Positions 26,908 through 42,364 of a DNA stretch of 64,000 nucleotides are shown piece by piece. How positions within the stretch are numbered: position 1 is the first letter of the stretch; every line of letters begins with the position of its first letter. The notes beneath the pieces are model-generated. The model was not told the origin of the DNA. It worked only from the letters and a program-made list of their open reading frames with translations, and ran no database searches. The stretch is from NCBI GenBank assembly GCA_024641305.1, contig JAHEDI010000004.1:2126-66125 (forward strand), given 5' to 3'. Both the position numbers and the translations under genes were made by a program. Origin of the DNA: a bacterium. Its GTDB lineage: Bacteria > Actinomycetota > Acidimicrobiia > Spongiisociales > JAENVV01.

Positions 26908-27633
26908 ATGCCTTTGCTTTCCATTGTTGTGCCGGTTCACAACGAGGCCGCCTACATCGCAGACTTCCTTCCGGCCATGACCAACGAAATCGTCGACGCC
27001 ACCGGCAGTCCGCAAGAGTTGATCGTCGTGGAGAACGGCTCGACCGACGGCACCGCCCAACTGGCCAATGATCTCTGCGAAAATCTCCGCACCCTCGGGT
27101 GGAAAGCCGAGGTCATCTCGCTGCCGTTCCCCGACTACGGAGCCGCCATGCGAGCCGGCTTCGAACAGTCACACGGCGACTGGGTCGTGAACTTCGACAT
27201 TGACTATTTCTCGGGCCCGTTTGTTGCCGGTCTGATCGCTACAAGCGCCGACATCGTCATCGCCTCAAAACGGGCCCCTGAAAGCGAAGACCACCGCAGT
27301 CTGCTGCGCCGGACTGGCACATTCGGATTCAACGTGCTTCTTAAATTCCTCGTTGGATCAACGGTCACGGATACCCATGGAATCAAGGCATTCCGAAGGA
27401 CGGTCATCGATTCCATGCTGGATACGGTGCAGTCCAACAAGGATCTCTTCGATACCGAACTGGTCATCCGATCCGAACGAGCCGGCTTCTCCATTGCCGA
27501 GGTACCGATCATCGTGGAAGAACGTCGGGCGGCCAGAACCCCCTTTGTGAAGCGAATCCCACGAACACTCAAAGGACTGGTTCAGCTCCGGGCATCGTTC
27601 GAAAGAGAACGTCGGAACACCAGGTCTCGATAA
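26908..27633 (+). CDS. GT2 glycosyltransferase, polyprenyl-phosphate sugar synthase type (Ppm1-D2/DPM1/GtrB-like)
   Basis: It begins LSIVVPVHNEA and has ENGSTDGT and a DxD. It is 241 aa, soluble, and carries the basic C-terminal helix typical of dolichyl/polyprenyl-phosphate hexose synthases. Confidence 0.8.
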   Translation: MPLLSIVVPVHNEAAYIADFLPAMTNEIVDATGSPQELIVVENGSTDGTAQLANDLCENLRTLGWKAEVISLPFPDYGAAMRAGFEQSHGDWVVNFDIDYFSGPFVAGLIATSADIVIASKRAPESEDHRSLLRRTGTFGFNVLLKFLVGSTVTDTHGIKAFRRTVIDSMLDTVQSNKDLFDTELVIRSERAGFSIAEVPIIVEERRAARTPFVKRIPRTLKGLVQLRASFERERRNTRSR

Positions 27634-28028
27634 CCGGCAAACTTCGGAAAAAGAACCAGTACGGTAGCGGCGACCTTGGCGCCGTTGAAGGCCGCCAGGT
27701 TGTCTCCGAACCACAGTTCAGCCAGTGCCACAAACCCGGACGTTACGGCCAGAGCGAATCCATTGACCAGGAAGAACGCCGCCGTCTCGCGCATCGACTT
27801 CTTCCCGTCGGTGATCAAGAACGTGAAACGACGGTTCATCAAATATGAGGCGCCGGTGGCGGTGGTAAACGCCAGCACAACCGAGACTTGGGAAGAAAAG
27901 CCCAAACCAGCTTTGAAGACATTGGCCAGCACAAAATCAAGAACCGTATTCAAGCCGCCAATGACGGCCAGCCTCATGAACTGATTGGCGCTGGTCCGGT
28001 TGAAGAAGCTCAGCAAATAGGCTTTCAT
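27582..28028 (-). CDS. GtrA family small membrane protein (flippase of polyprenyl-P-sugar systems)
   Basis: It is 148 aa with four predicted TM helices and resembles the GtrA family (LNTVLDFVL..., RRFTF). It overlaps the upstream large membrane protein gene by 4 nt. Confidence 0.75.
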   Translation of the reverse strand: MKAYLLSFFNRTSANQFMRLAVIGGLNTVLDFVLANVFKAGLGFSSQVSVVLAFTTATGASYLMNRRFTFLITDGKKSMRETAAFFLVNGFALAVTSGFVALAELWFGDNLAAFNGAKVAATVLVLFPKFAGYRDLVFRRSLSNDARS

Positions 28029-30460
28029 GCCTCTTTCCTTCTCGCGACGACAAAGCCGGCTACCAGCAGGGCAATTCCGGATGCCGTCATCGCAATACCA
28101 ACCTTCTCAAAGATGGTTCTGGTGAAATCCATCTCGACGTGACCCTCGGTGGGGACGACGATCATCAACGACGGACTGGCCCTCCACGGCCCGTCTGCTC
28201 CGGTAGCCTGCCAGTTCGGAAAGTACGACACCTTCACAAGGTGAGGTACCCCGATGGCGGTGGTATCGAATTCGAAGTGACCGTTATCACTCACAATATT
28301 CGACACGACCCCGGAATCCTTGAGTGGTGTCGATACGCTCTCAAGCAGAGAAAGGTCGTCGATTCGTGGCCAATCTGCCGGGCCGTCCGCCACCAGCCAA
28401 TTATCGAGGAGTTCGAGATCGTCGTACCATTCGAGCGCCACATCGTTGAAGTTCGACGCTTCCTCACTTCCCAGCCTAAGTCCACCTTCGGTTTCGAAGA
28501 CGACCGGCTGATTGACGGCAACGTCGACCAGCTGAGTCGGGGGCAACGCGAAGACCCGGTGTGGGTCAATGCGGGCGATCTCACGGAGTTCGGGATGGGC
28601 GAGCGCCTCCTCGGCGGCCTCAGGGGTAAACGTCACGTAATAATTGACTCCGTAGACGGCCAGGTGGGCGATACCGCGATCGAAGTCAAAGTTGTGATAG
28701 GTCAAACCAGGAATCGGATTCGACGGCCGGAAACTCATCTCACCGGCGTTGATGAAGTGAAACGGCGTGGTGATGGATGATTCAAAGAAGAGTCCCTCCA
28801 TCGAGGCTTGCCGAGTCCAGTAGGGAAACAGCATGAGCGCCATCGGCGTCCCGTACTCGCGGTCCATGTCGTTGTTGGCTTCCCACTGAATTCGCCCAGC
28901 CGGTAGAACGTCGACCGCTTCCATGAGCCGTTGGTACTGGTCAAATCCCGGTTTCTGTTCATAGCCGCTGAAGTTCCATGCGGCCCAGCCGGAAACGAAA
29001 CTTAATCCGGCCAGCGACTGGACGAGAATGAACCCGCTGGCCAGGAGCACCATCGACGGGCCAGTTTTGACTTTCGCCCCGGCGATCTCCACTCCCCCCC
29101 AAACGAGAATCGCCAACGCCGCAACGCCGCCTGCCCACCATTGGACCTCAACGGACCCTTTCCAAAATCCCGCCGCCAACGCAACCAGGGCCCCGATCAG
29201 GAGCGGCGCCTTGAGCCAACCAACTGAAATCCTGGTCGGTAGACGCCTGGCAACCGCCTTCGATGCAACCCCGACGGTGACACCAGTGAGCATCGATATG
29301 CCGAAGAACCAAAATGGCAGCAACCGACCATTCCAGAGCTTCCAGGTTCCTGAAAACCAACCCATCTGACTGGCGATCGTGGGGACCCAGAAGTACAAGA
29401 CCGGAAGGAACGTCAGGACGACCATCGGGGCCCAGTTCTTGGTTCGCCTGATCAGCCATCCCGCCCCGAACATCGCCGGAGGCAGCAAGAGCCAAATCTC
29501 GGACGGGAGGATCTCCCCCCAGGTCTTCAGCGGCACCCAGCTCATGTCAGAGGTTTGGTTGAGCCTGGCAATGAGCGGGACAGCCCAGAAGCCGGCCACT
29601 GCAAAGCCCCATAGCCAGACCACCCCGGTCTTGAGGAACCCCCGCTTCCAGAACAGGATTGGGATGCTCGCCAGCACGAACATCCCGGTCGTAATCACAT
29701 GCGATAGAGCCGTGCAAGCCAGCAACAGGACCGCCAGCGGAACATACCGTGGCGAAACCCGGACGGCCTTGATGAGGGTCGCCAGATAGAACAAACCCAA
29801 CGCAAAGGACCATGAATATGAAAATTCGCCAGCCATCGTCGACGGAGCATTCCCTCCGAAGATCGTGAACGACTCAATAAAGACGAAGGTTCCACCCGCT
29901 ACACCGGCCGCCGTGCCAACCCACCGGTCCAACCCCAAGGCCCGCCCGAACACATATGAGGCGGCCGGAGTAGCCAGCAAACCCGCCACCGTCACAATCT
30001 TGAAAGCCACGCCGTACGGAAGCAGCAGATCGAGAAAGACGATGACCAGTGAGGGCAAAGGGAAGTAGAAGTAGAAGGCGGGGAACCCGGCGAACCAGGC
30101 GTCACTCCAGCCAAGGATCTGGAAATTGGGCAGCAGATCATCCCGCAGGATGGCCGGTCCAAGGACATGGGCGCCCATATCCCCCCCGGTCGGGGTATTG
30201 ATTGTCAGAATGAGCCACGGTTGCACAGCGAAGAAAATCGCCGCCGTTACGGCGGCGATTGCAAGTCGCGGCACCCATGGGGACACCGCCTGGTCGGCGG
30301 TGCCCGAGGCCCTCCCGCTAGGCGCGGGCCTTCCTGGCGAGTTCCAGTACGTCCGCAAGCGCGATCTCTCGTCCTTGATGGTCCCACCATCGTTCGTCAC
30401 ACTTATGGCATGAGAAAAAATCGATCTCAGTACCGTCCGGTAACTTCTGGTGAATTTCAA
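28025..30460 (-). CDS. large polytopic membrane protein, putative GT-C fold glycosyltransferase (YfhO/PMT-like) with C-terminal extracytoplasmic domain
   Basis: About 13-15 hydrophobic helices occupy the first about 520 aa, followed by an about 290-aa soluble domain. Its operon context with GtrA and a GT2 polyprenyl-P-sugar synthase supports the call. The start may be the GTG near 30286 rather than 30460. Confidence 0.55.
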   Translation of the reverse strand: MKFTRSYRTVLRSIFSHAISVTNDGGTIKDERSRLRTYWNSPGRPAPSGRASGTADQAVSPWVPRLAIAAVTAAIFFAVQPWLILTINTPTGGDMGAHVLGPAILRDDLLPNFQILGWSDAWFAGFPAFYFYFPLPSLVIVFLDLLLPYGVAFKIVTVAGLLATPAASYVFGRALGLDRWVGTAAGVAGGTFVFIESFTIFGGNAPSTMAGEFSYSWSFALGLFYLATLIKAVRVSPRYVPLAVLLLACTALSHVITTGMFVLASIPILFWKRGFLKTGVVWLWGFAVAGFWAVPLIARLNQTSDMSWVPLKTWGEILPSEIWLLLPPAMFGAGWLIRRTKNWAPMVVLTFLPVLYFWVPTIASQMGWFSGTWKLWNGRLLPFWFFGISMLTGVTVGVASKAVARRLPTRISVGWLKAPLLIGALVALAAGFWKGSVEVQWWAGGVAALAILVWGGVEIAGAKVKTGPSMVLLASGFILVQSLAGLSFVSGWAAWNFSGYEQKPGFDQYQRLMEAVDVLPAGRIQWEANNDMDREYGTPMALMLFPYWTRQASMEGLFFESSITTPFHFINAGEMSFRPSNPIPGLTYHNFDFDRGIAHLAVYGVNYYVTFTPEAAEEALAHPELREIARIDPHRVFALPPTQLVDVAVNQPVVFETEGGLRLGSEEASNFNDVALEWYDDLELLDNWLVADGPADWPRIDDLSLLESVSTPLKDSGVVSNIVSDNGHFEFDTTAIGVPHLVKVSYFPNWQATGADGPWRASPSLMIVVPTEGHVEMDFTRTIFEKVGIAMTASGIALLVAGFVVARRKEA

Positions 30461-36540: not shown

Positions 36541-37223
36541 ACCTCGAGATTTTTGGGGTGCCCGGGATCGGCGAGGTCAAGGCCGGCGACGACGTCGCCG
36601 ATCTGATCCTGGCAGCACTTCCCCGTCCCCTCCAGGACGCCGATATTGTGGTTGTCACTCACAAAATCGTGTCCAAGGCAGAGGGATCTGTTCTTGCAGC
36701 ATCCACCGACGAAGCTCGCAAGGCCATCGTTGAAGCCGAATCGGCAGGGATCATCCGTCGGCGAGGACAGTTGATCATTTCTATAACCAGGCACGGCTTC
36801 ATCTGTGCCAATGCAGGCGTTGACCGTTCGAACGTCGAGCCTGGAAACGTGGTTCTCCTCCCGAGGGACCCAGATGCCAGCGCCCACCGCATCCGGCACC
36901 GCCTTGAACGGGCGACCGGCACTTTGCTCGGAGTGATCATCACGGACACGTTCGGGCGACCCTGGAGACGCGGGCTGACCGACGTGGCCATCGGCATCTC
37001 GGGACTCCCAGCCCTGATCGATTACCGGGGAACGTCCGACACCTTTGGTTCGGTTCTCGAGGTGACCGAGGTAGCCGCCGTCGATGAGATTGCGGCGGCC
37101 GCAGATCTGGTCATGGGCAAGGCGACCGGCACGCCCGTGGCCGTGGTGCGCGGCCTCAACCTCCGTGGTGAGGGACGGGCCATCGACCTCGTTCGACCGC
37201 CGGACGAAGACCTATTCCGCTAG
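36519..37223 (+). CDS. cofE: coenzyme F420-0:L-glutamate ligase, stand-alone CofE domain
   Basis: It has the CofE fold motifs (VVVTHKIVSKAEG, ANAGVDRSN). It overlaps the fbiA stop. There is no C-terminal nitroreductase domain. Confidence 0.85.
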   Translation: MADRGAVNLEIFGVPGIGEVKAGDDVADLILAALPRPLQDADIVVVTHKIVSKAEGSVLAASTDEARKAIVEAESAGIIRRRGQLIISITRHGFICANAGVDRSNVEPGNVVLLPRDPDASAHRIRHRLERATGTLLGVIITDTFGRPWRRGLTDVAIGISGLPALIDYRGTSDTFGSVLEVTEVAAVDEIAAAADLVMGKATGTPVAVVRGLNLRGEGRAIDLVRPPDEDLFR

Positions 37224-38149
37224 CGGTACGAGCGAACCGTCTCGGCTACTCCTTCGACAACCGCCGTCCACGGTGCCCAATCAAGGCCTCGCACGGCTGC
37301 CGATGCGTCAAGGGCGGACCTCTCGATATCTCCCGGTTTGGGAGCTTCGAAAATCGGTGTGGCCGGTCCTCCGGTTGCTTTGGCAATGAGCCCATACAAA
37401 TCCGAGATACTCGTCTCCGTGCCAGTACCGACGTGATAGGTCCGCCCGACATTCGTGGTTCGACTCGCCCTGAAGAAGGCGTCTGCCACATCTGCCACAA
37501 AGACAAAATCGCGGGTCTGGCCGCCCCCGCCGAAAATGGTTCCTGGTCTTCCCGCCAGCAACGTCTCAACAAAGATGGCCACCACCCCACCCTCAGCATG
37601 GGCTCTCTGCCGCGGCCCGTAGACGTTGGCTGGAGCGATCACCACATGGTCGAGGCCATACGTTCGCTGATACATGGCCAAATATTCGCTCGCCGCCAAC
37701 TTGGCGACGCCATACGGCGAAATCGGACGAGGCTTCTGCGTCTCCTTCGTTGGGATCGCCGAACCGGGCCCGGCAAGCGCACCGCCCGATGAGGCAAACA
37801 CAATCCTCCCTGCCCCGGATCGGCGGCAGGCCTCCAACACCGAAATCGTCCCCAGAACATTGACCTGAGCGTCGTACATCGGGTCTGCCATGGAAACCGA
37901 CACCGAGGCCTGGGCGGCAAGATGGAACACCGTGTCGGGTCGGAACCGCCCCAGAACCACACCAAGGTCACGATCAAGAATGTCGATGGTGTGGACCTTC
38001 ACACTGCCGAATTCACGAGCGGACTTCAGATTGTCGAGATGGCCGGAAGACAAGTCATCGATGACCAGGACCTCGTCGCCCTCATTGACGAGCCTGTCAA
38101 CAAGATGCGACCCGATAAACCCGGCTCCGCCTGTCACAACAGCTCTCAT
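37220..38149 (-). CDS. NAD-dependent epimerase/dehydratase (GalE-like SDR)
   Basis: It has VTGGAGFIGSHL and YxxxK (YGVAKLA). The start is taken at MRAVVTGGAG. Confidence 0.8.
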   Translation of the reverse strand: MRAVVTGGAGFIGSHLVDRLVNEGDEVLVIDDLSSGHLDNLKSAREFGSVKVHTIDILDRDLGVVLGRFRPDTVFHLAAQASVSVSMADPMYDAQVNVLGTISVLEACRRSGAGRIVFASSGGALAGPGSAIPTKETQKPRPISPYGVAKLAASEYLAMYQRTYGLDHVVIAPANVYGPRQRAHAEGGVVAIFVETLLAGRPGTIFGGGGQTRDFVFVADVADAFFRASRTTNVGRTYHVGTGTETSISDLYGLIAKATGGPATPIFEAPKPGDIERSALDASAAVRGLDWAPWTAVVEGVAETVRSYR

Positions 38150-38862
38150 TCTGACCGGCTCCAATGACGTCTCGGCACGAACCGCCACTTCACGAGGGCG
38201 ACCAGCGCCGGGAGGCCGTCTTTCCAGCTGATCTTCTTGCCTTCGTCAACTTCGCGACCAGCGTAGGTAATCGGAACTTCCCAGATACGATGGCCAGACC
38301 GGAGAAGCTTGGCCGTAATCTCTGGTTCGATCTCAAAGCGGTTCGAGGTCAAAACCAGACTCTGAGCGACGTTCGTATCAATCATTTTTGAACATGTCTC
38401 CATGTCTGAGATCGTGGTGTTGTAGAGGACATTGGTCACCAGGCTCAAGAAGCGATTTCCAACCCAGTGCCAGAACATCATATTGCGACGCTCACCGGTG
38501 AATCTGGACCCGTAAACCACTTTGGCCAATCCCTCATTAAGCGGCCGAAGCATGGCCACCCAATCACGTGGATCGTATTCAAGATCGGCGTCATAAATGA
38601 CCAACACATCGCCCGTGGCCGCTTCGATCCCTCTCCGAACCGCCGCCCCTTTTCCCTGATTGGACGGCTGCTCGATGAAACGAACGGTCGAGTCCACCAA
38701 TTGGCGCACGACCTCCTGGGTGCCATCGGTCGAACCGTCATCGACGACGATCAGTTCCCGATCGACCGGCAGGAGTTCATCGCGAGCGCGTCGGATCGCT
38801 TCGGCGATCGTCCGCCGCTCGTTGAAAACCGGGATTATTACCGTCAGCTTGGAATAGGTCAT
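38146..38862 (-). CDS. GT2 glycosyltransferase (dolichyl-phosphate-hexose-synthase-like)
   Basis: It begins LTVIIPVFNE and has VDDGSTDGT and a DxD (YDAD). The start is taken at MTYSKL, which overlaps the uxs stop by 4 nt. Confidence 0.8.
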   Translation of the reverse strand: MTYSKLTVIIPVFNERRTIAEAIRRARDELLPVDRELIVVDDGSTDGTQEVVRQLVDSTVRFIEQPSNQGKGAAVRRGIEAATGDVLVIYDADLEYDPRDWVAMLRPLNEGLAKVVYGSRFTGERRNMMFWHWVGNRFLSLVTNVLYNTTISDMETCSKMIDTNVAQSLVLTSNRFEIEPEITAKLLRSGHRIWEVPITYAGREVDEGKKISWKDGLPALVALVKWRFVPRRHWSRSE

Positions 38863-39794
38863 GTCTGGGCTCTCAGGTACTCGACGGTTCTTTCCAAACC
38901 GGAGGCAAGATCCGTCGTGGCTCGCCATCCCGTCGCATCATGCATTGCCCGCAAGTCAGGTCTCCGGACTTTAGGGTCACCATCGGGAAGCGGCACAAAG
39001 GTGCGTCCTGACCGGCCGAGCAATTCTTGCACAGCGTCGGCCAATTCAAGCATGCTGATCTCGACATCATTTCCAAGGTTTAGGGGTCCGGGTAATTGTC
39101 GGTCGACAACCATCATCAGACCATCGACAATGTCGTCGACGTAACAAAAGGACCGAGTCTGGGATCCGTCACCGAAGAGCGGCAACGGCTTGCCCGCCAA
39201 GGCCGCAGAGATGAACGCGGTCACGACACGGCCGTCTTGTGGATTCATACCCGGTCCATAGGTATTAAAGAGCCGAACCACGGACGATCTCGTATGACGT
39301 TCCGATCTCCGGTAGGCGTACACGAGAGCCTCGGCATATCGTTTCCCCTCGTCATAACAAGCGCGCGGTCCCCGAACGTCGACAGACCCCGGGTAGCTCT
39401 CAACCTGCGGATGAACTTCCGGATCACCGTAGACCTCAGAAGTCGACGTAAACAGCAAGTGAGCACCCGATTCGGCGGCCAGATCAAGCATTTGTCGAGT
39501 CCCTTCGGCTGCCGTGCGAAGCGTCCCGACCGGATCCAACAGATACCGGGGCGGCGAGGCCGGCGAGGCCAAATGGCAGATCAATTGGAACGGTTGCCCC
39601 AGCAATGGCGGCGACACGACCGACCCCTCCACAATGGTGGCGGGAAGGTCGGCCGCAGCAGGCGATGGAGACGAGAAATCATCGAGCACCGTGACATCCC
39701 AGCCATCGGCATTGAGGCGCCTTACCAAATGGCAGCCCAGGAAACCCGCCCCACCGGTAACCAGCGCCCGTCCAGGTTCCAAACCAACCCTCAC
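38859..39794 (-). CDS. uxs: UDP-glucuronate decarboxylase (UDP-xylose synthase)
   Basis: It has GGAGFLG, a YxxxK, and GDGSQTRSFCYVDD. It sits directly downstream of ugd. Confidence 0.8.
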   Translation of the reverse strand: MRVGLEPGRALVTGGAGFLGCHLVRRLNADGWDVTVLDDFSSPSPAAADLPATIVEGSVVSPPLLGQPFQLICHLASPASPPRYLLDPVGTLRTAAEGTRQMLDLAAESGAHLLFTSTSEVYGDPEVHPQVESYPGSVDVRGPRACYDEGKRYAEALVYAYRRSERHTRSSVVRLFNTYGPGMNPQDGRVVTAFISAALAGKPLPLFGDGSQTRSFCYVDDIVDGLMMVVDRQLPGPLNLGNDVEISMLELADAVQELLGRSGRTFVPLPDGDPKVRRPDLRAMHDATGWRATTDLASGLERTVEYLRAQT

Positions 39795-41047
39795 CGACCC
39801 ACCCCGATATACGAGAGTCCAACTGCCCTCACGGCAATCGGATCCAGGAGGTTACGGGCGTCCACAATGGCGGATCCACGCATTTGGGTGGCGACGGCTC
39901 GCAAGTCATATCGTTGGAATTCAGGCCATTCGGTCGCGATGAGTAAAACGTCAGCTCCCTTGATGGTCGACATGGCGTCACCCCCTTCGGGGATGCCCGG
40001 CACGGAAGCCTGGGGGTCAAACGCGACTACGTCAGCGCCGGCTTCCATCAACTGGTCGATTACTCGAACGGCGGGACTCTCTCGAACGTCATCGGTGCCG
40101 GCCTTAAACGCCAATCCCCAGACTGCCACTCTCGCTCCGGCGAGCTTACCGCCGGCCGCATCCCGGACTTTCGCAACCGTTCTGGCAAATTGCTCTTCAT
40201 TGGTTGCAATCACTCCAGACATGAGCGAAAAGTCGTAGCCGGCATCCGCTGCCAAACGAACGAGCGCCCGGGTGTCCTTGGGAAAGCACGAACCACCAAA
40301 CCCGGGACCGGGACGCATGAACGAGAACCCGATGCGGTGGTCGTAGCCAATCCCGAGCAAGACGTCGCGCACATCGGCCCCCACCGCCTCGCACACATTG
40401 GCCATTGCATTCGCGTAGGTGACCCTGGCGGCCAAATAGCCATTGGCTGCATACTTGATAACCTCGGCCGAGGTGAGGTCGGTCACCAGGATTGGAGCGT
40501 CGATCGATCGATACAGTTCGATCAACTGGTCGACGTTGCGTCGATCCTCGGTACCAATGACGATACGGTCGGGCTTCATAAAATCTGTAACAGCACTCCC
40601 CTCGCGCAGAAACTCGGGGTTCGACGCCACGGGCCGCCTGGTTCTGATCCCGACTTCCAGGTTGGTCCCGACGGGCACCGTCGACTTGGTGACGACCAAA
40701 CAGTCCTGCGGTAAAACGGCGGCGAGTTCGTCGGCAACGGAATAGATCGCCGACACGTCGGCCTCCCCATCATCGCCTTGGGGAGTCGGCAGCGCCAGAA
40801 ACACAATCTGAGCATCCTTGACGGCCGCATGATTCGAATCGGTAACGACCAGCGACCCGTCGGCGAGGGTGGCGCTCAAGAGTTCGGGGAGCCCCGGCTC
40901 GAAGATCGGAGATCGTCCCGCCCGAATCTCGGCAACGCGTGCCGGATCCCGTTCTGCAAGGGTTACCTTGTTACCGAGGTGAGCGAGCCCGACGGCCTGT
41001 ACCAGACCCACGTATCCTGCTCCGATCACGGCTACTCGCATCAGCAC
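39791..41047 (-). CDS. ugd: UDP-glucose 6-dehydrogenase
   Basis: It has VIGAGYVG and GFGGSCFPKD with the catalytic Cys. Confidence 0.85.
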   Translation of the reverse strand: MLMRVAVIGAGYVGLVQAVGLAHLGNKVTLAERDPARVAEIRAGRSPIFEPGLPELLSATLADGSLVVTDSNHAAVKDAQIVFLALPTPQGDDGEADVSAIYSVADELAAVLPQDCLVVTKSTVPVGTNLEVGIRTRRPVASNPEFLREGSAVTDFMKPDRIVIGTEDRRNVDQLIELYRSIDAPILVTDLTSAEVIKYAANGYLAARVTYANAMANVCEAVGADVRDVLLGIGYDHRIGFSFMRPGPGFGGSCFPKDTRALVRLAADAGYDFSLMSGVIATNEEQFARTVAKVRDAAGGKLAGARVAVWGLAFKAGTDDVRESPAVRVIDQLMEAGADVVAFDPQASVPGIPEGGDAMSTIKGADVLLIATEWPEFQRYDLRAVATQMRGSAIVDARNLLDPIAVRAVGLSYIGVGR

Positions 41048-41068
41048 CCCCTGAGTGTCCGAACCAAG

Positions 41069-42364
41069 TTAGCCGGGTTGATTGAGCGAGTCAGCTCCGA
41101 GAATAATGAGAACATCGGAGGTGCCAGGGGTCCCTTCGACAACTTCTCCGAACCCGAGCCGTTGGAGGACGAGTTCTCCGTATCCCGATCCAATCGGGCT
41201 CACAATCTGAGTGACGGGGACCGCAAACGTGTCATAGTCAACGACCGACACAACCTCGAAACCCATATCGTCGAGGGCACTCGCCCAGCGAGTAGCGGCT
41301 CCAAGGGCGCCGTTGCCGTTGGCCACTTCGATGGTGAGAATCTGGGGCGCGGTCGTAGTCGGACCCGCTTCGGCCGCCGCGGGGGTCACTTGCTCGAAGG
41401 CCGATAAGGCGTCGGTTGCGGCCGGCTCATCGCGGATCTCGTAATAGAGCCCGTCGATGATCTCGGTGTGGGTTGGCAACGTGGCCGCCGAAATGTTGTC
41501 GGTCCCAAAGGTCCGAAACGCAAGAGCGAGTGAGACGAGATCCAACTCGCTGAAGTTCGGATCGACCACCATGAACTGAGCAAGCTCGGCGACGAGCGAC
41601 TGAACGCCTACGACATTTGACGGCTTCTTGAGTTGACCGAGAATCGCTCCAAGCAACTGCTGTTGCCGTTTGGTCCTGCCGATATCATTGGCATCTGCGC
41701 TGGCCCACTGTCCATCGCGTAATTCTTGATAGGACCGGGACCGAGCGTACGCCAGGGCCATCCGCCCGTCGAGAATCTGTGTTCCTGCCTCAACCGAGAG
41801 TTTGCTCTTCAAGTCGCGGGCCGGATACGGGAAGGTGACGGTCAGGCCGCCAAGCTTATCGACAAGACCGGCAAACCCGACAAAGTCGATCTCGACATAG
41901 TGATGGATCGGGATTCCCAGCTCTGCCTGAACCGTCGACAGCATGAGCGACGCGCCACCGAATGCATAGGCGGCGTTCACTTTCTGAACCCCGTACCCGT
42001 CGACATCTACGCGTAGGTCACGAGGGAGGCTGAGCAGCTGGACCGAACCGGAATCAGGGAACGCCCTGACGAGCATGATGACGTCGGCGCGTTGGCCCTT
42101 GAAATCTCCGAAGTCACCCCCCCAATCGTCAGGCAAATTCTCGCGGGAGTCCGACCCGAGCATCAGAAAGGTGATCGGATCACCCGGGTCGGATGGAGAC
42201 TCGGTCAATATTTCATCGAGCTGCGGGACGACGGTGAAGTTCGCCAGCTGGTCCGACACCTGATTGACCTGCCAGAGCGCGTACCCAACCATGAGGTTTG
42301 CGAGGACCAGCGTCGTGATGACACTTCGCTTGACCCAGATCCATTTGTCGGACTTCCTAGCCAT
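41069..42364 (-). CDS. LCP (LytR-CpsA-Psr) family cell-wall glycopolymer ligase with C-terminal LytR_C domain
   Basis: It has an N-terminal TM anchor and the LCP core (GSDSR...RADVIML...LPRD). Confidence 0.85.
   Translation of the reverse strand: MARKSDKWIWVKRSVITTLVLANLMVGYALWQVNQVSDQLANFTVVPQLDEILTESPSDPGDPITFLMLGSDSRENLPDDWGGDFGDFKGQRADVIMLVRAFPDSGSVQLLSLPRDLRVDVDGYGVQKVNAAYAFGGASLMLSTVQAELGIPIHHYVEIDFVGFAGLVDKLGGLTVTFPYPARDLKSKLSVEAGTQILDGRMALAYARSRSYQELRDGQWASADANDIGRTKRQQQLLGAILGQLKKPSNVVGVQSLVAELAQFMVVDPNFSELDLVSLALAFRTFGTDNISAATLPTHTEIIDGLYYEIRDEPAATDALSAFEQVTPAAAEAGPTTTAPQILTIEVANGNGALGAATRWASALDDMGFEVVSVVDYDTFAVPVTQIVSPIGSGYGELVLQRLGFGEVVEGTPGTSDVLIILGADSLNQPG

What the first reader, a model, noticed from the sequence alone, without database searches (positions are those of the whole stretch)
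37220..42364. UDP-xylose supply operon (ugd, uxs, GT2, SDR epimerase) adjacent to an LCP ligase
ugd (UDP-Glc to UDP-GlcA) is followed, with a 4-nt overlap, by a UXS-type UDP-glucuronate decarboxylase (GDGSQTRSFCYVDD), a GT2 transferase and a GalE-like epimerase. All are translationally coupled. An LCP family ligase lies immediately upstream on the same strand.
- UDP-xylose is an uncommon bacterial sugar donor.
- The arrangement predicts a xylose-containing (or GlcA/arabinose-containing, via 4-epimerisation) glycopolymer that the LCP enzyme attaches to peptidoglycan.
Basis: partly seen in the sequence, partly recalled or inferred. Interest (0 to 1): 0.6.

Follow-up and report, generated by a model that had tools for sequence, protein, structure and literature searches.

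The report
UDP-xylose operon beside wall ligase
An uncultured Acidimicrobiia bacterium has a tightly coupled five-gene operon (wall-polymer ligase, UDP-glucose dehydrogenase, a genuine UDP-xylose synthase, a lipid-carrier-type sugar transferase and a sugar epimerase); the enzymes are ordinary, but the transferase hints that xylose may be carried on a lipid phosphate, which has not been described.

Summary
On the minus strand, LCP (42364-41069), ugd (41041-39791), uxs (39794-38859), a 238-aa GT2 (38862-38146) and a GalE-type epimerase (38149-37220) form one operon. The last four are joined by GTGA/ATGA overlaps.

- **UXS:** it is a true UDP-xylose synthase. It matches human UXS1 at E 1.3e-79 with 46% identity, and all six signature residues are present (T118, S119, E120, Y147, K151, R277).
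- **Interpretation, partly supported:** across 41 related Acidimicrobiia genomes, the stretch between LCP and cofE is a modular cassette.
  - LCP-ugd is the common core.
  - The epimerase also occurs there without uxs or ugd. Its best match is a chain deposited as a UDP-glucose 4-epimerase. Its presence is therefore no evidence for UDP-arabinose.
- **GT2:** it is found only in genomes that also have uxs (17 of 17), usually directly downstream. By sequence and predicted fold it is an ArnC/DPMS/GtrB-type polyprenyl-phosphate glycosyltransferase that lacks TM helices.
- **Best reading:** the operon supplies UDP-GlcA and UDP-Xyl for a wall glycopolymer. The GT2 probably loads a pentose onto polyprenyl phosphate for decoration outside the membrane. 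That last step is inferred; no partner GT-C was identified.

The families are known and the arrangement is new. Interest is moderate.

The parts
41069..42364 (-). LCP (LytR-CpsA-Psr) glycopolymer-peptidoglycan ligase, 431 aa, with an N-terminal membrane anchor and a LytR_C domain; first gene of the unit
   Evidence: PF03816 scores 130.8 bits, PF13399 38.7 bits and TIGR00350 124 bits against a cut-off of 62.3. The hydropathy maximum is 1.63 at residue 15. It is a positionally conserved backbone gene in relatives across the order.
39791..41041 (-). ugd, UDP-glucose 6-dehydrogenase, 416 aa (ATG at 41041, 27 nt after the LCP stop)
   Evidence: It has the three UDPG_MGDP_dh domains and scores 415 bits on TIGR03026 (cut-off 189.8). 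It directly follows LCP in most relatives.
38859..39794 (-). uxs, UDP-glucuronate decarboxylase / UDP-xylose synthase, 311 aa; GTG start overlaps the ugd stop (GTGA)
   Evidence: E 1.3e-79 and 46% identity to human UXS1 2b69. GGAGFLG, T118, S119, E120, Y147, K151 and R277 are all present.
38146..38862 (-). GT2 of the polyprenyl-phosphate glycosyltransferase type (ArnC/DPMS/GtrB/AglJ-like), 238 aa, without TM helices; ATG overlaps the uxs stop (ATGA)
   Evidence: PF00535 scores 111 bits. The best NCBIfam hit is AglJ at 115 bits, below its cut-off. The best PDB sequence hit is DPMS 5mlz at 1.5e-17, followed by ArnC. The AF2 model has pLDDT 80.5 and its top 23 PDB fold hits are all ArnC/DPMS/GtrB. 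The DADLEY motif, R120 and R203 correspond to DPMS D89-H94, R117 and R202. The maximum 19-residue hydropathy is 0.79.
37220..38149 (-). GalE-type NAD-dependent 4-epimerase, 309 aa; ATG overlaps the GT2 stop (ATGA); its stop overlaps the convergent cofE stop (CTAG)
   Evidence: E 1.2e-84 to PDB 7ys8 (UDP-glucose 4-epimerase) and 2e-74 to 4zrm. It has the S121/Y146/K150 triad and lacks the UXS-type E120 and R277. It occurs at this position in relatives without uxs.
27582..30460 (-). Candidate downstream machinery, not shown to be linked: a GtrA-family protein (27582-28028) and an 811-aa protein with no family match (28025-30460)
   Evidence: GtrA_DPMS_TM scores 58.6 bits. The 811-aa protein matches nothing in Pfam, NCBIfam or PDB. 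It is also present in relatives without uxs or the GT2, so it is not specific to the uxs operon.

Best explanation
This is a five-gene operon of an uncultured Acidimicrobiia bacterium, placed in the conserved actinobacterial cell-wall neighbourhood birA-hydrolase-LCP-[cassette]-cofE/cofD.

- **Ugd** oxidises UDP-glucose to UDP-glucuronate.
- **UXS** decarboxylates part of that pool to UDP-xylose.
- **The GalE-type enzyme** interconverts UDP-hexoses. Like many GalE enzymes, it may also make some UDP-L-arabinose from UDP-xylose.
- **The 238-aa GT2** is a TM-less relative of ArnC/DPMS/GtrB. It most likely transfers the pentose from its UDP donor to polyprenyl phosphate.
- **Later steps:** the lipid-linked sugar would be flipped and used by an unidentified GT-C enzyme to decorate a glycopolymer. 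The LCP enzyme attaches that polymer, or one related to it, to peptidoglycan.

Shown: the gene identities, the operon structure, the UXS active-site signature, the fold class of the GT2, and its co-occurrence with uxs. Inferred: the donor and acceptor of the GT2, the wall polymer itself, and the involvement of LCP.
For: - **Operon:** 4-nt overlaps at three junctions and a 27-nt gap after LCP.
- **UXS:** E 1.3e-79 to human UXS1, 46% identity, and T118/S119/E120/Y147/K151/R277 all present. The same six positions are kept in 16 of the 17 orthologues aligned; the weakest has S at 118.
- **GT2 by sequence:** the best matches are AglJ, PpgS, ArnC and DPMS.
- **GT2 by fold:** the top 23 hits are all polyprenyl-phosphate GTs, with ArnC first (E 1.1e-15, TM 0.73).
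- **GT2 residues:** DADLEY, R120 and R203 align with the DXD motif, the acceptor-phosphate Arg and the donor-phosphate Arg of DPMS/ArnC.
- **Co-occurrence:** the GT2 orthologue is in 17 of 41 related genomes, and all 17 also have UXS. No genome without UXS has it.
- **Adjacency:** it lies next to uxs in all 8 genomes of the genus, in 4 genomes of three other families, and in 7 named Acidimicrobiaceae-type MAGs.
- **Wider family:** members in other phyla often sit beside PMT_2, YfhO or DUF2079 membrane proteins, which are of the type that uses lipid-phosphate sugars.
- **Ligase context:** LCP-ugd adjacency is conserved across many families of the order.
Against: - No biochemical data exist for any of these proteins.
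- The GT2 has no TM helices.
- No flippase or GT-C gene lies in the operon.
- Two acceptor-binding residues of DPMS (R131, S135) align with an invariant His and Asn here.
- The predicted juxtamembrane region has low model confidence (pLDDT 43-66).
- In one family (G027, G038) the GT2 sits between ugd and galE while uxs lies elsewhere in the genome. That layout fits a uronic-acid donor equally well.
- GT2 relatives at about 50% identity in other phyla are not next to uxs.
- The related genomes are not independent samples.
Confidence: 0.5

Rival explanations
1. The GT2 is a cytoplasmic xylosyltransferase. It adds xylose directly to a lipid-pyrophosphate-linked linkage unit or growing polymer, and not to polyprenyl monophosphate.
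For: - It has no TM helix.
- No flippase or GT-C gene lies in the operon.
- DPMS residues R131 and S135 are not conserved.
- Soluble GT-A enzymes (WrtF, GpgS) also appear among the fold hits from rank 24 on.
- The gene lies in the neighbourhood where mycobacteria keep the linker-unit transferase wbbL1 (own knowledge).
Against: - The top 23 fold hits and the best sequence hits are all polyprenyl-phosphate GTs.
- In named Acidimicrobiaceae MAGs a separate second GT2 follows it; one of the two examined has a weak rhamnosyltransferase match. So it is not simply the WbbL analogue.
- Family members elsewhere pair with GT-C proteins.
Confidence: 0.2
2. The GT2 uses a uronic acid donor (UDP-GlcA, or UDP-GalA made by the epimerase). 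It makes polyprenyl-phosphate-uronate, as Rhizobium RgtE does. UXS serves a separate product.
For: - LCP-ugd is the conserved core of the cassette.
- G027 and G038 have ugd-GT2-galE with uxs elsewhere.
- RgtE-type chemistry is known (own knowledge).
Against: - All 17 genomes with the GT2 have UXS, and none without UXS has the GT2.
- The GT2 start overlaps the uxs stop here, and the two genes are adjacent in 12 related genomes and 7 named MAGs.
- The epimerase's top match is a UDP-hexose epimerase. UDP-GlcA 4-epimerase structures (6zl6, 6kv9) score far lower.
Confidence: 0.15
3. The genes are co-located nucleotide-sugar housekeeping genes. Their products feed an exopolysaccharide, glycolipid or protein glycan that has nothing to do with the LCP ligase.
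For: - The LCP link rests on adjacency only.
- The cassette content varies widely, and in some relatives it is empty.
- In seven named MAGs ugd-uxs-GT2 occurs with no LCP gene within about 7 kb.
Against: - There is a 27-nt gap and no terminator-like site between LCP and ugd.
- LCP-ugd adjacency recurs in many families.
- The neighbourhood (rmlB/rmlD, manC, galE, LCP) is the actinobacterial wall-polysaccharide region (own knowledge of the Rv3264c-Rv3267 region).
Confidence: 0.1

Closest known systems
UDP-xylose synthase (UXS; human UXS1, PDB 2b69/4gll; bacterial Uxs1 of Sinorhizobium meliloti)
   Same: It is an extended SDR with 46% identity to hUXS1 and E 1.3e-79. The catalytic T118/Y147/K151 and the UXS-specific S119/E120/R277 are present at the same positions.
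   Different: It is soluble, with no Golgi anchor. It sits in an operon with an LCP ligase and an ArnC-like GT2. Activity has not been measured.
Arn pathway of Gram-negative bacteria (Ugd, ArnA decarboxylase, ArnC, ArnT)
   Same: The logic matches: Ugd makes UDP-GlcA, an SDR decarboxylates it to a UDP-pentose, and a GT2 of the ArnC fold would load that pentose on undecaprenyl phosphate. ArnC is the top structural match.
   Different: - There is no aminotransferase, formyltransferase, deformylase, ArnE/F or ArnT in the operon.
- The decarboxylase is a complete UXS that keeps E120 and R277, not ArnA (41.9 bits against a cut-off of 777).
- The GT2 lacks the two TM helices of ArnC.
- The host is an actinobacterium without lipid A.
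Mycobacterial TM-less polyprenyl-phosphate sugar synthases: Ppm1/D2, PpgS (Rv3631, beside galE1 Rv3634c) and MtxS (Rv0539)
   Same: These are small GT2 catalytic proteins without membrane helices of their own. They make lipid-phosphate sugar donors for GT-C enzymes that decorate wall glycans (PMC3485146, PMC12088412). PpgS likewise lies close to a GalE1-type epimerase.
   Different: The match to the PpgS model is only 70 bits against a cut-off of 370. No small membrane partner gene is adjacent. The donor implied by gene linkage is a UDP-pentose, not GDP-Man, UDP-GalNAc or an MTX donor.
Mycobacterium tuberculosis Rv3264c-Rv3267 region (manC, wbbL1, rmlD, LCP ligase Lcp1/CpsA1) next to fbiA/fbiB
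   Same: The chromosomal setting is the same: an LCP ligase followed by nucleotide-sugar and GT2 genes, beside the F420 genes cofD/cofE. In some relatives manC, rmlB and rmlD are also present. The Mtb gene order is from my own knowledge.
   Different: The rhamnose genes are replaced or supplemented by ugd-uxs-GT2. The GT2 is of the Dpm1/ArnC type, not the WbbL type.

Membership tests
UDP-xylose synthase (UXS group of extended SDRs) | N-terminal GxxGxxG NAD-binding motif and the SDR triad Thr118/Tyr147/Lys151 (hUXS1 numbering) | tested here: met
   GGAGFLG starts at residue 14, and T118, Y147 and K151 are present. The residue roles are taken from PMC3438964.
UDP-xylose synthase (UXS group of extended SDRs) | UXS-specific Ser119, Glu120 and Arg277, which are replaced in the 4-epimerases | tested here: met
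   The TSE motif is at 118-120 and R277 lies in VRRPD. S119, E120 and R277 are kept in all 17 related orthologues aligned. The neighbouring epimerase has G, G and S at these positions.
UDP-xylose synthase (UXS group of extended SDRs) | Closer in sequence to characterised UXS than to other SDR sugar enzymes | tested here: met
   E 1.3e-79 to hUXS1. The next non-UXS structure scores 2.7e-33 and ArnA-type chains score 1e-12 to 1e-18.
UDP-xylose synthase (UXS group of extended SDRs) | Converts UDP-GlcA to UDP-Xyl with release of CO2 | not testable with these tools
   This needs an enzyme assay.
Polyprenyl-phosphate glycosyltransferases (ArnC/GtrB/DPMS, GT2) | GT-A fold closest to ArnC/GtrB/DPMS | tested here: met
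   The AF2 model has pLDDT 80.5 and pTM 0.81. PDB fold hits 1-23 are all ArnC, DPMS or GtrB, with E 1e-15 to 5e-11 and TM 0.65-0.73.
Polyprenyl-phosphate glycosyltransferases (ArnC/GtrB/DPMS, GT2) | DXD motif of the form DADLQ(H/D/N) | tested here: met
   D91-A-D93-L-E-Y96 aligns with DPMS D89-H94 and is invariant in the family alignment. Glu replaces the metal-binding Gln.
Polyprenyl-phosphate glycosyltransferases (ArnC/GtrB/DPMS, GT2) | Acceptor-phosphate residues (DPMS R117, R131, S135) and donor-phosphate Arg (R202) | tested here: inconclusive
   R120 aligns with R117 and R203 with R202; both are invariant. R131 aligns with an invariant H132 and S135 with an invariant N136, which is followed by an invariant R137. 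The alignment is uncertain in this loop.
Polyprenyl-phosphate glycosyltransferases (ArnC/GtrB/DPMS, GT2) | Two amphipathic juxtamembrane helices plus TM helices that anchor the enzyme | tested here: not met
   There is no TM segment (maximum 19-residue hydropathy 0.79). Helices are predicted at 130-147 (pLDDT 43-66) and 213-227. Absence of TM helices is known for the Ppm1/D2 and PpgS type (PMC3485146).
Polyprenyl-phosphate glycosyltransferases (ArnC/GtrB/DPMS, GT2) | Genomic pairing with a flippase and a GT-C transferase | tested here: inconclusive
   Neither is in this operon. A GtrA gene and an unclassified 811-aa protein lie about 8-10 kb away, but they also occur in relatives that lack the GT2. 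Family members in other phyla do sit beside PMT_2, YfhO or DUF2079 proteins.
UDP-glucose 6-dehydrogenase | Three-domain UDPG_MGDP_dh architecture and a score above the NCBIfam subfamily cut-off | tested here: met
   PF03721, PF00984 and PF03720 all match. TIGR03026 scores 415 bits against 189.8. The TuaD and AglM equivalog cut-offs are not reached (386 against 700, and 340 against 670).
GalE UDP-hexose 4-epimerase | Ser/Tyr/Lys triad and a score above the galE equivalog cut-off | tested here: inconclusive
   S121, Y146 and K150 are present. E 1.2e-84 to 7ys8. TIGR01179 scores 151 bits, below its cut-off of 262. Substrate range is unknown.
LCP (LytR-CpsA-Psr) ligases | Membrane anchor plus an extracytoplasmic LCP domain scoring above the cut-off | tested here: met
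   PF03816 scores 130.8 bits against 24.6 and TIGR00350 124 bits against 62.3. An N-terminal hydrophobic segment is present.
Arn (L-Ara4N) lipid A modification system | ArnA, ArnB, ArnD, ArnE/F and ArnT together with ArnC | tested here: not met
   The ArnA model scores 41.9 bits against 777 and the ArnC model 51.9 against 529. No aminotransferase, formyltransferase, deformylase or ArnT gene is in the operon.

The most novel reading that the evidence does not exclude
The uxs-linked 238-aa GT2 is a polyprenyl-phosphate xylose (or L-arabinose) synthase. It would be a TM-less, amine-free counterpart of ArnC, and would define a lipid-linked pentose donor for extracytoplasmic decoration of the Acidimicrobiia cell wall. 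I found no description of such a donor in the searchable literature.
Probability: 0.35. Interest if true: 0.6.

Novelty: new member of a known kind. Interest (0 to 1): 0.38.

Why it matters
Acidimicrobiia are abundant and mostly uncultured, and their wall polymers are unknown.

- **What the locus predicts:** in this lineage the main LCP ligase is co-expressed with a UDP-GlcA/UDP-Xyl supply. That predicts an acidic, pentose-bearing wall polymer in place of, or alongside, the rhamnose-based linker of mycobacteria.
- **A testable candidate:** the strict nesting of the ArnC-like GT2 within uxs-positive genomes makes it a concrete candidate for a lipid-phosphate pentose donor, which would be a new carrier-sugar species.

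If the GT2 turns out to be a plain xylosyltransferase, the locus is ordinary.

Tried and rejected
- **Rejected alternatives for uxs:** a dTDP-glucose dehydratase, an ArnA-type decarboxylase or a UDP-GlcA epimerase are all ruled out by score gaps and signature residues.
- **Epimerase as a dedicated UDP-Xyl 4-epimerase:** rejected as an inference from context, because the gene stays at the locus in relatives without uxs.
- **GT2 as the WbbL analogue:** considered because of its position. It is unlikely, because a second GT2 follows it in named MAGs, one with a weak rhamnosyltransferase match.
- **Partner GT-C search:** the 811-aa neighbour has no Pfam, NCBIfam or PDB match and is not specific to GT2-positive genomes.
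- **Profiling not done:** I planned genome-wide profiling of GT-C families against GT2 presence, and a check for rml/wbbL genes in the window's own genome.
- **Promoter and terminator scan:** uninformative.
- **Literature searches:** searches for a polyprenyl-phosphate xylose or arabinose donor, for xylose in Acidimicrobiia walls and for PDB 7ys8 found nothing relevant. One cultivated Acidimicrobiia strain is reported with rhamnose, ribose, mannose and galactose.

Full report
**Observation**

The minus strand between 42364 and 37220 carries five genes.
- I refined the starts from the sequence: LCP 42364-41069, ugd 41041-39791 (ATG, 27 nt after the LCP stop, preceded by a G-rich stretch), uxs 39794-38859, GT2 38862-38146 and epimerase 38149-37220.
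- The junctions ugd/uxs (GTGA), uxs/GT2 (ATGA) and GT2/epimerase (ATGA) are 4-nt start-stop overlaps.
- The GT2 is therefore 238 aa, not the 260-aa longest ORF.
- Pfam and NCBIfam give LytR_cpsA_psr plus LytR_C, the three UDP-glucose dehydrogenase domains (TIGR03026, 415 bits against a cut-off of 189.8), Epimerase, Glycos_transf_2 and Epimerase.

**Organism and setting**

- Close homologues are named Acidimicrobiia MAGs. The genome is 3.42 Mb in 93 contigs.
- The flanks are birA, a dienelactone-hydrolase-fold protein, acyl-CoA carboxylase genes, cofD/cofE, a 917-aa GT2-membrane fusion, a DUF5719 protein and a phosphomannomutase.
- From my own knowledge of the Rv3261-Rv3267 region, this resembles the mycobacterial and corynebacterial wall neighbourhood, where an LCP ligase sits beside rmlD-wbbL1-manC and fbiA/fbiB.

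**UXS**

- The protein matches human UDP-xylose synthase at E 1.3e-79 with 46% identity over 299 aligned positions. The next non-UXS structure scores 2.7e-33.
- The structural paper on hUXS1 defines the SDR triad T118/Y147/K151 and the UXS-specific S119/E120/R277. Glu and Arg close the site and prevent release of the 4-keto-pentose, and they are replaced in the 4-epimerases (PMC3438964).
- All six residues are present at the same numbers here. They are kept in 16 of 17 related orthologues; the weakest has S at 118.

**Comparative genomics**

- In 41 related genomes, UXS orthologues with 44% identity or more occur in 20. UXS is thus common in this order, not rare.
- I fetched about 20 kb around the locus from 32 relatives. 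They share a conserved backbone: carboxylase genes, birA, hydrolase, LCP, [cassette], cofE, cofD, GT2-fusion, DUF5719.
- The cassette varies between lineages:
  - nothing (G015, G019, G021);
  - galE only (G011);
  - ugd only (G024, G035);
  - ugd-galE (G014, G026, G031);
  - ugd, a nucleotidyltransferase, then galE (G028, G039);
  - ugd-GT2-galE with uxs elsewhere (G027, G038);
  - ugd-uxs-galE (G008, G010);
  - ugd-uxs-GT2-galE (the window's genus);
  - ugd-uxs-GT2-nucleotidyltransferase-galE (G032, G034, G025).
- Two conclusions follow:
  - LCP-ugd is the common core, so a uronic-acid-containing polymer is the first prediction for the order.
  - The epimerase belongs to the backbone and is not dedicated to the xylose branch.
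- The epimerase's best match is PDB 7ys8, deposited as a UDP-glucose 4-epimerase (E 1.2e-84).
  - It carries S121/Y146/K150 and lacks the UXS Glu and Arg.
  - The M. tuberculosis GalE1-type enzyme Rv3634c acts on UDP-Gal/Glc and UDP-GalNAc (abstract of PMC5389812).
  - Some UDP-L-arabinose could still form through GalE promiscuity. That is inference from general knowledge, not from this locus.

**The GT2**

- *Sequence matches.* The best NCBIfam hits are AglJ (115 bits), PpgS, PgfS, a dolichyl-phosphate hexose transferase and ArnC, all below their cut-offs. The best PDB sequence hits are DPMS (1.5e-17) and ArnC (2.5e-13).
- *Fold.* An AlphaFold model built on a 15-sequence alignment has pLDDT 80.5 and pTM 0.81. 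Its first 23 PDB fold matches are all polyprenyl-phosphate glycosyltransferases, with ArnC first, then DPMS and GtrB.
- *Family features.* The ArnC structural preprint lists the features of the family.
  - Met: the DXD motif DADLQx (here invariant DADLEY), the acceptor Arg (DPMS R117, here R120) and the donor-phosphate Arg (R202, here R203).
  - Uncertain: DPMS R131 and S135 align with an invariant His132 and Asn136-Arg137.
  - Not met: TM helices are absent (maximum hydropathy 0.79). The same is described for the mycobacterial Ppm1/D2 and PpgS catalytic proteins (PMC3485146).
- *Distribution.*
  - The orthologue (E below 1e-40) is in 17 of the 41 genomes. All 17 have UXS. Three genomes have a UXS orthologue without the GT2 (G008, G010, G029), and G039 has a weaker UXS-like gene without it. 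No genome without UXS has the GT2.
  - The GT2 is directly next to uxs in all eight genomes of the genus, in four genomes of three other families, and in seven named Acidimicrobiaceae-type MAGs. In two of those MAGs examined further, the triad ugd-uxs-GT2 lies between rmlB-rmlD and a second GT2, manC and galE.
  - These genomes are related, so the count overstates independence. Counted by rough lineage it is about six with both genes, three with UXS only, eleven with neither and none with the GT2 only.
- *Wider family.* Members with about 50% identity occur in Chloroflexota, Acidobacteriota, candidate phyla and others.
  - They are not next to uxs.
  - In 33 of the 80 family loci fetched (which include the seven Acidimicrobiia MAGs), a large polytopic protein lies within 3 kb (crude hydropathy count).
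  - Of 12 such proteins sampled, 5 are PMT_2, 3 YfhO, 1 DUF2079, 1 MFS and 2 unclassified.
  - This fits a family of lipid-phosphate sugar synthases with varied donors.

**Mechanism proposed**

1. Ugd makes UDP-GlcA.
2. UXS makes UDP-Xyl.
3. The GT2 loads the pentose on polyprenyl phosphate. The pentose would be xylose, or L-arabinose if the epimerase acts on UDP-Xyl.
4. A flippase and a GT-C enzyme add it to a wall glycopolymer outside the membrane.
5. LCP ligates the polymer to peptidoglycan.

Steps 1 and 2 rest on strong homology. Step 3 rests on fold class and gene linkage. Steps 4 and 5 rest on analogy and adjacency only.

No GT-C or flippase lies in the operon. A GtrA gene and an unclassified 811-aa protein lie about 8-10 kb away, next to a second Dpm1-like GT2 that is 28% identical to this one. 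They also occur in relatives without uxs, so they cannot be assigned to this pathway.

**Rivals**

- A direct cytoplasmic xylosyltransferase (0.2).
- A polyprenyl-phosphate-uronate synthase of the RgtE kind (0.15), favoured by the ugd-GT2-galE cassettes of G027 and G038.
- Unrelated housekeeping sugar genes (0.1).

**Comparison with known systems**

- The logic mirrors the first half of the Arn pathway (Ugd, decarboxylase, ArnC). The system is not a member: ArnA, ArnB, ArnD, ArnE/F and ArnT are absent and the model scores lie far below the cut-offs.
- The nearest actinobacterial parallels are PpgS with GalE1 and MtxS (Rv0539), which make lipid-linked GalNAc and methylthioxylose donors.
- I found no open-access text naming a polyprenyl-phosphate xylose or arabinose donor. 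That is weak evidence of absence.

**Verdict**

The refinements are these:
- The epimerase is not evidence for arabinose.
- UXS is not rare in this order.
- The GT2 is ArnC-like and strictly nested within uxs-positive genomes.

Novelty: a new member of a known kind, with a moderately interesting untested possibility, a lipid-phosphate pentose donor.

**Limits**

No biochemistry is available.

Noticed in passing
window 37220-37223: The epimerase gene (minus strand) and cofE (plus strand) converge and share a CTAG, so their stop codons overlap by 4 nt with no intergenic space or terminator.
   Followed up: no
window 26908-30460: There is a second Dpm1-like GT2 (26908-27633, plus strand, 28% identical to the uxs-linked GT2), a GtrA-family protein (27582-28028) and an 811-aa protein with no Pfam, NCBIfam or PDB match (28025-30460). 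This could be a Gtr-type glycosylation module. It is present in relatives regardless of uxs.
   Followed up: partly
L012-L043 (relatives), cassette between LCP and cofE: The stretch between LCP and cofE is a modular cassette with at least nine different gene contents across one order, inside an otherwise fixed gene order.
   Followed up: yes
L045:2654-9648 and L046:2103-11687: In named Acidimicrobiaceae MAGs, the ugd-uxs-GT2 triad is embedded between rmlB-rmlD and a second GT2, with manC and galE further on in L046. One of the two second GT2s has a weak rhamnosyltransferase hit. This is a mycobacterium-like rhamnose linker neighbourhood with the xylose genes inserted and no LCP within about 7 kb.
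   Followed up: partly
L021:18532-19932: In one family the GT2 homologue (48% identity) is the N-terminal half of a 466-aa protein. Its C-terminal half, about 230 aa, has no Pfam match. Two methyltransferase genes and another GT2 lie nearby.
   Followed up: no
L074:1871-3439: In Thermoanaerobaculia MAGs, a GT2 of the same family appears fused to a C-terminal methyltransferase-like region in one 522-aa ORF. I judged this from the sequence; it was not scanned.
   Followed up: no
L023:9175-10110: In genome G025, uxs is inverted relative to ugd and the GT2, although it lies between them.
   Followed up: no
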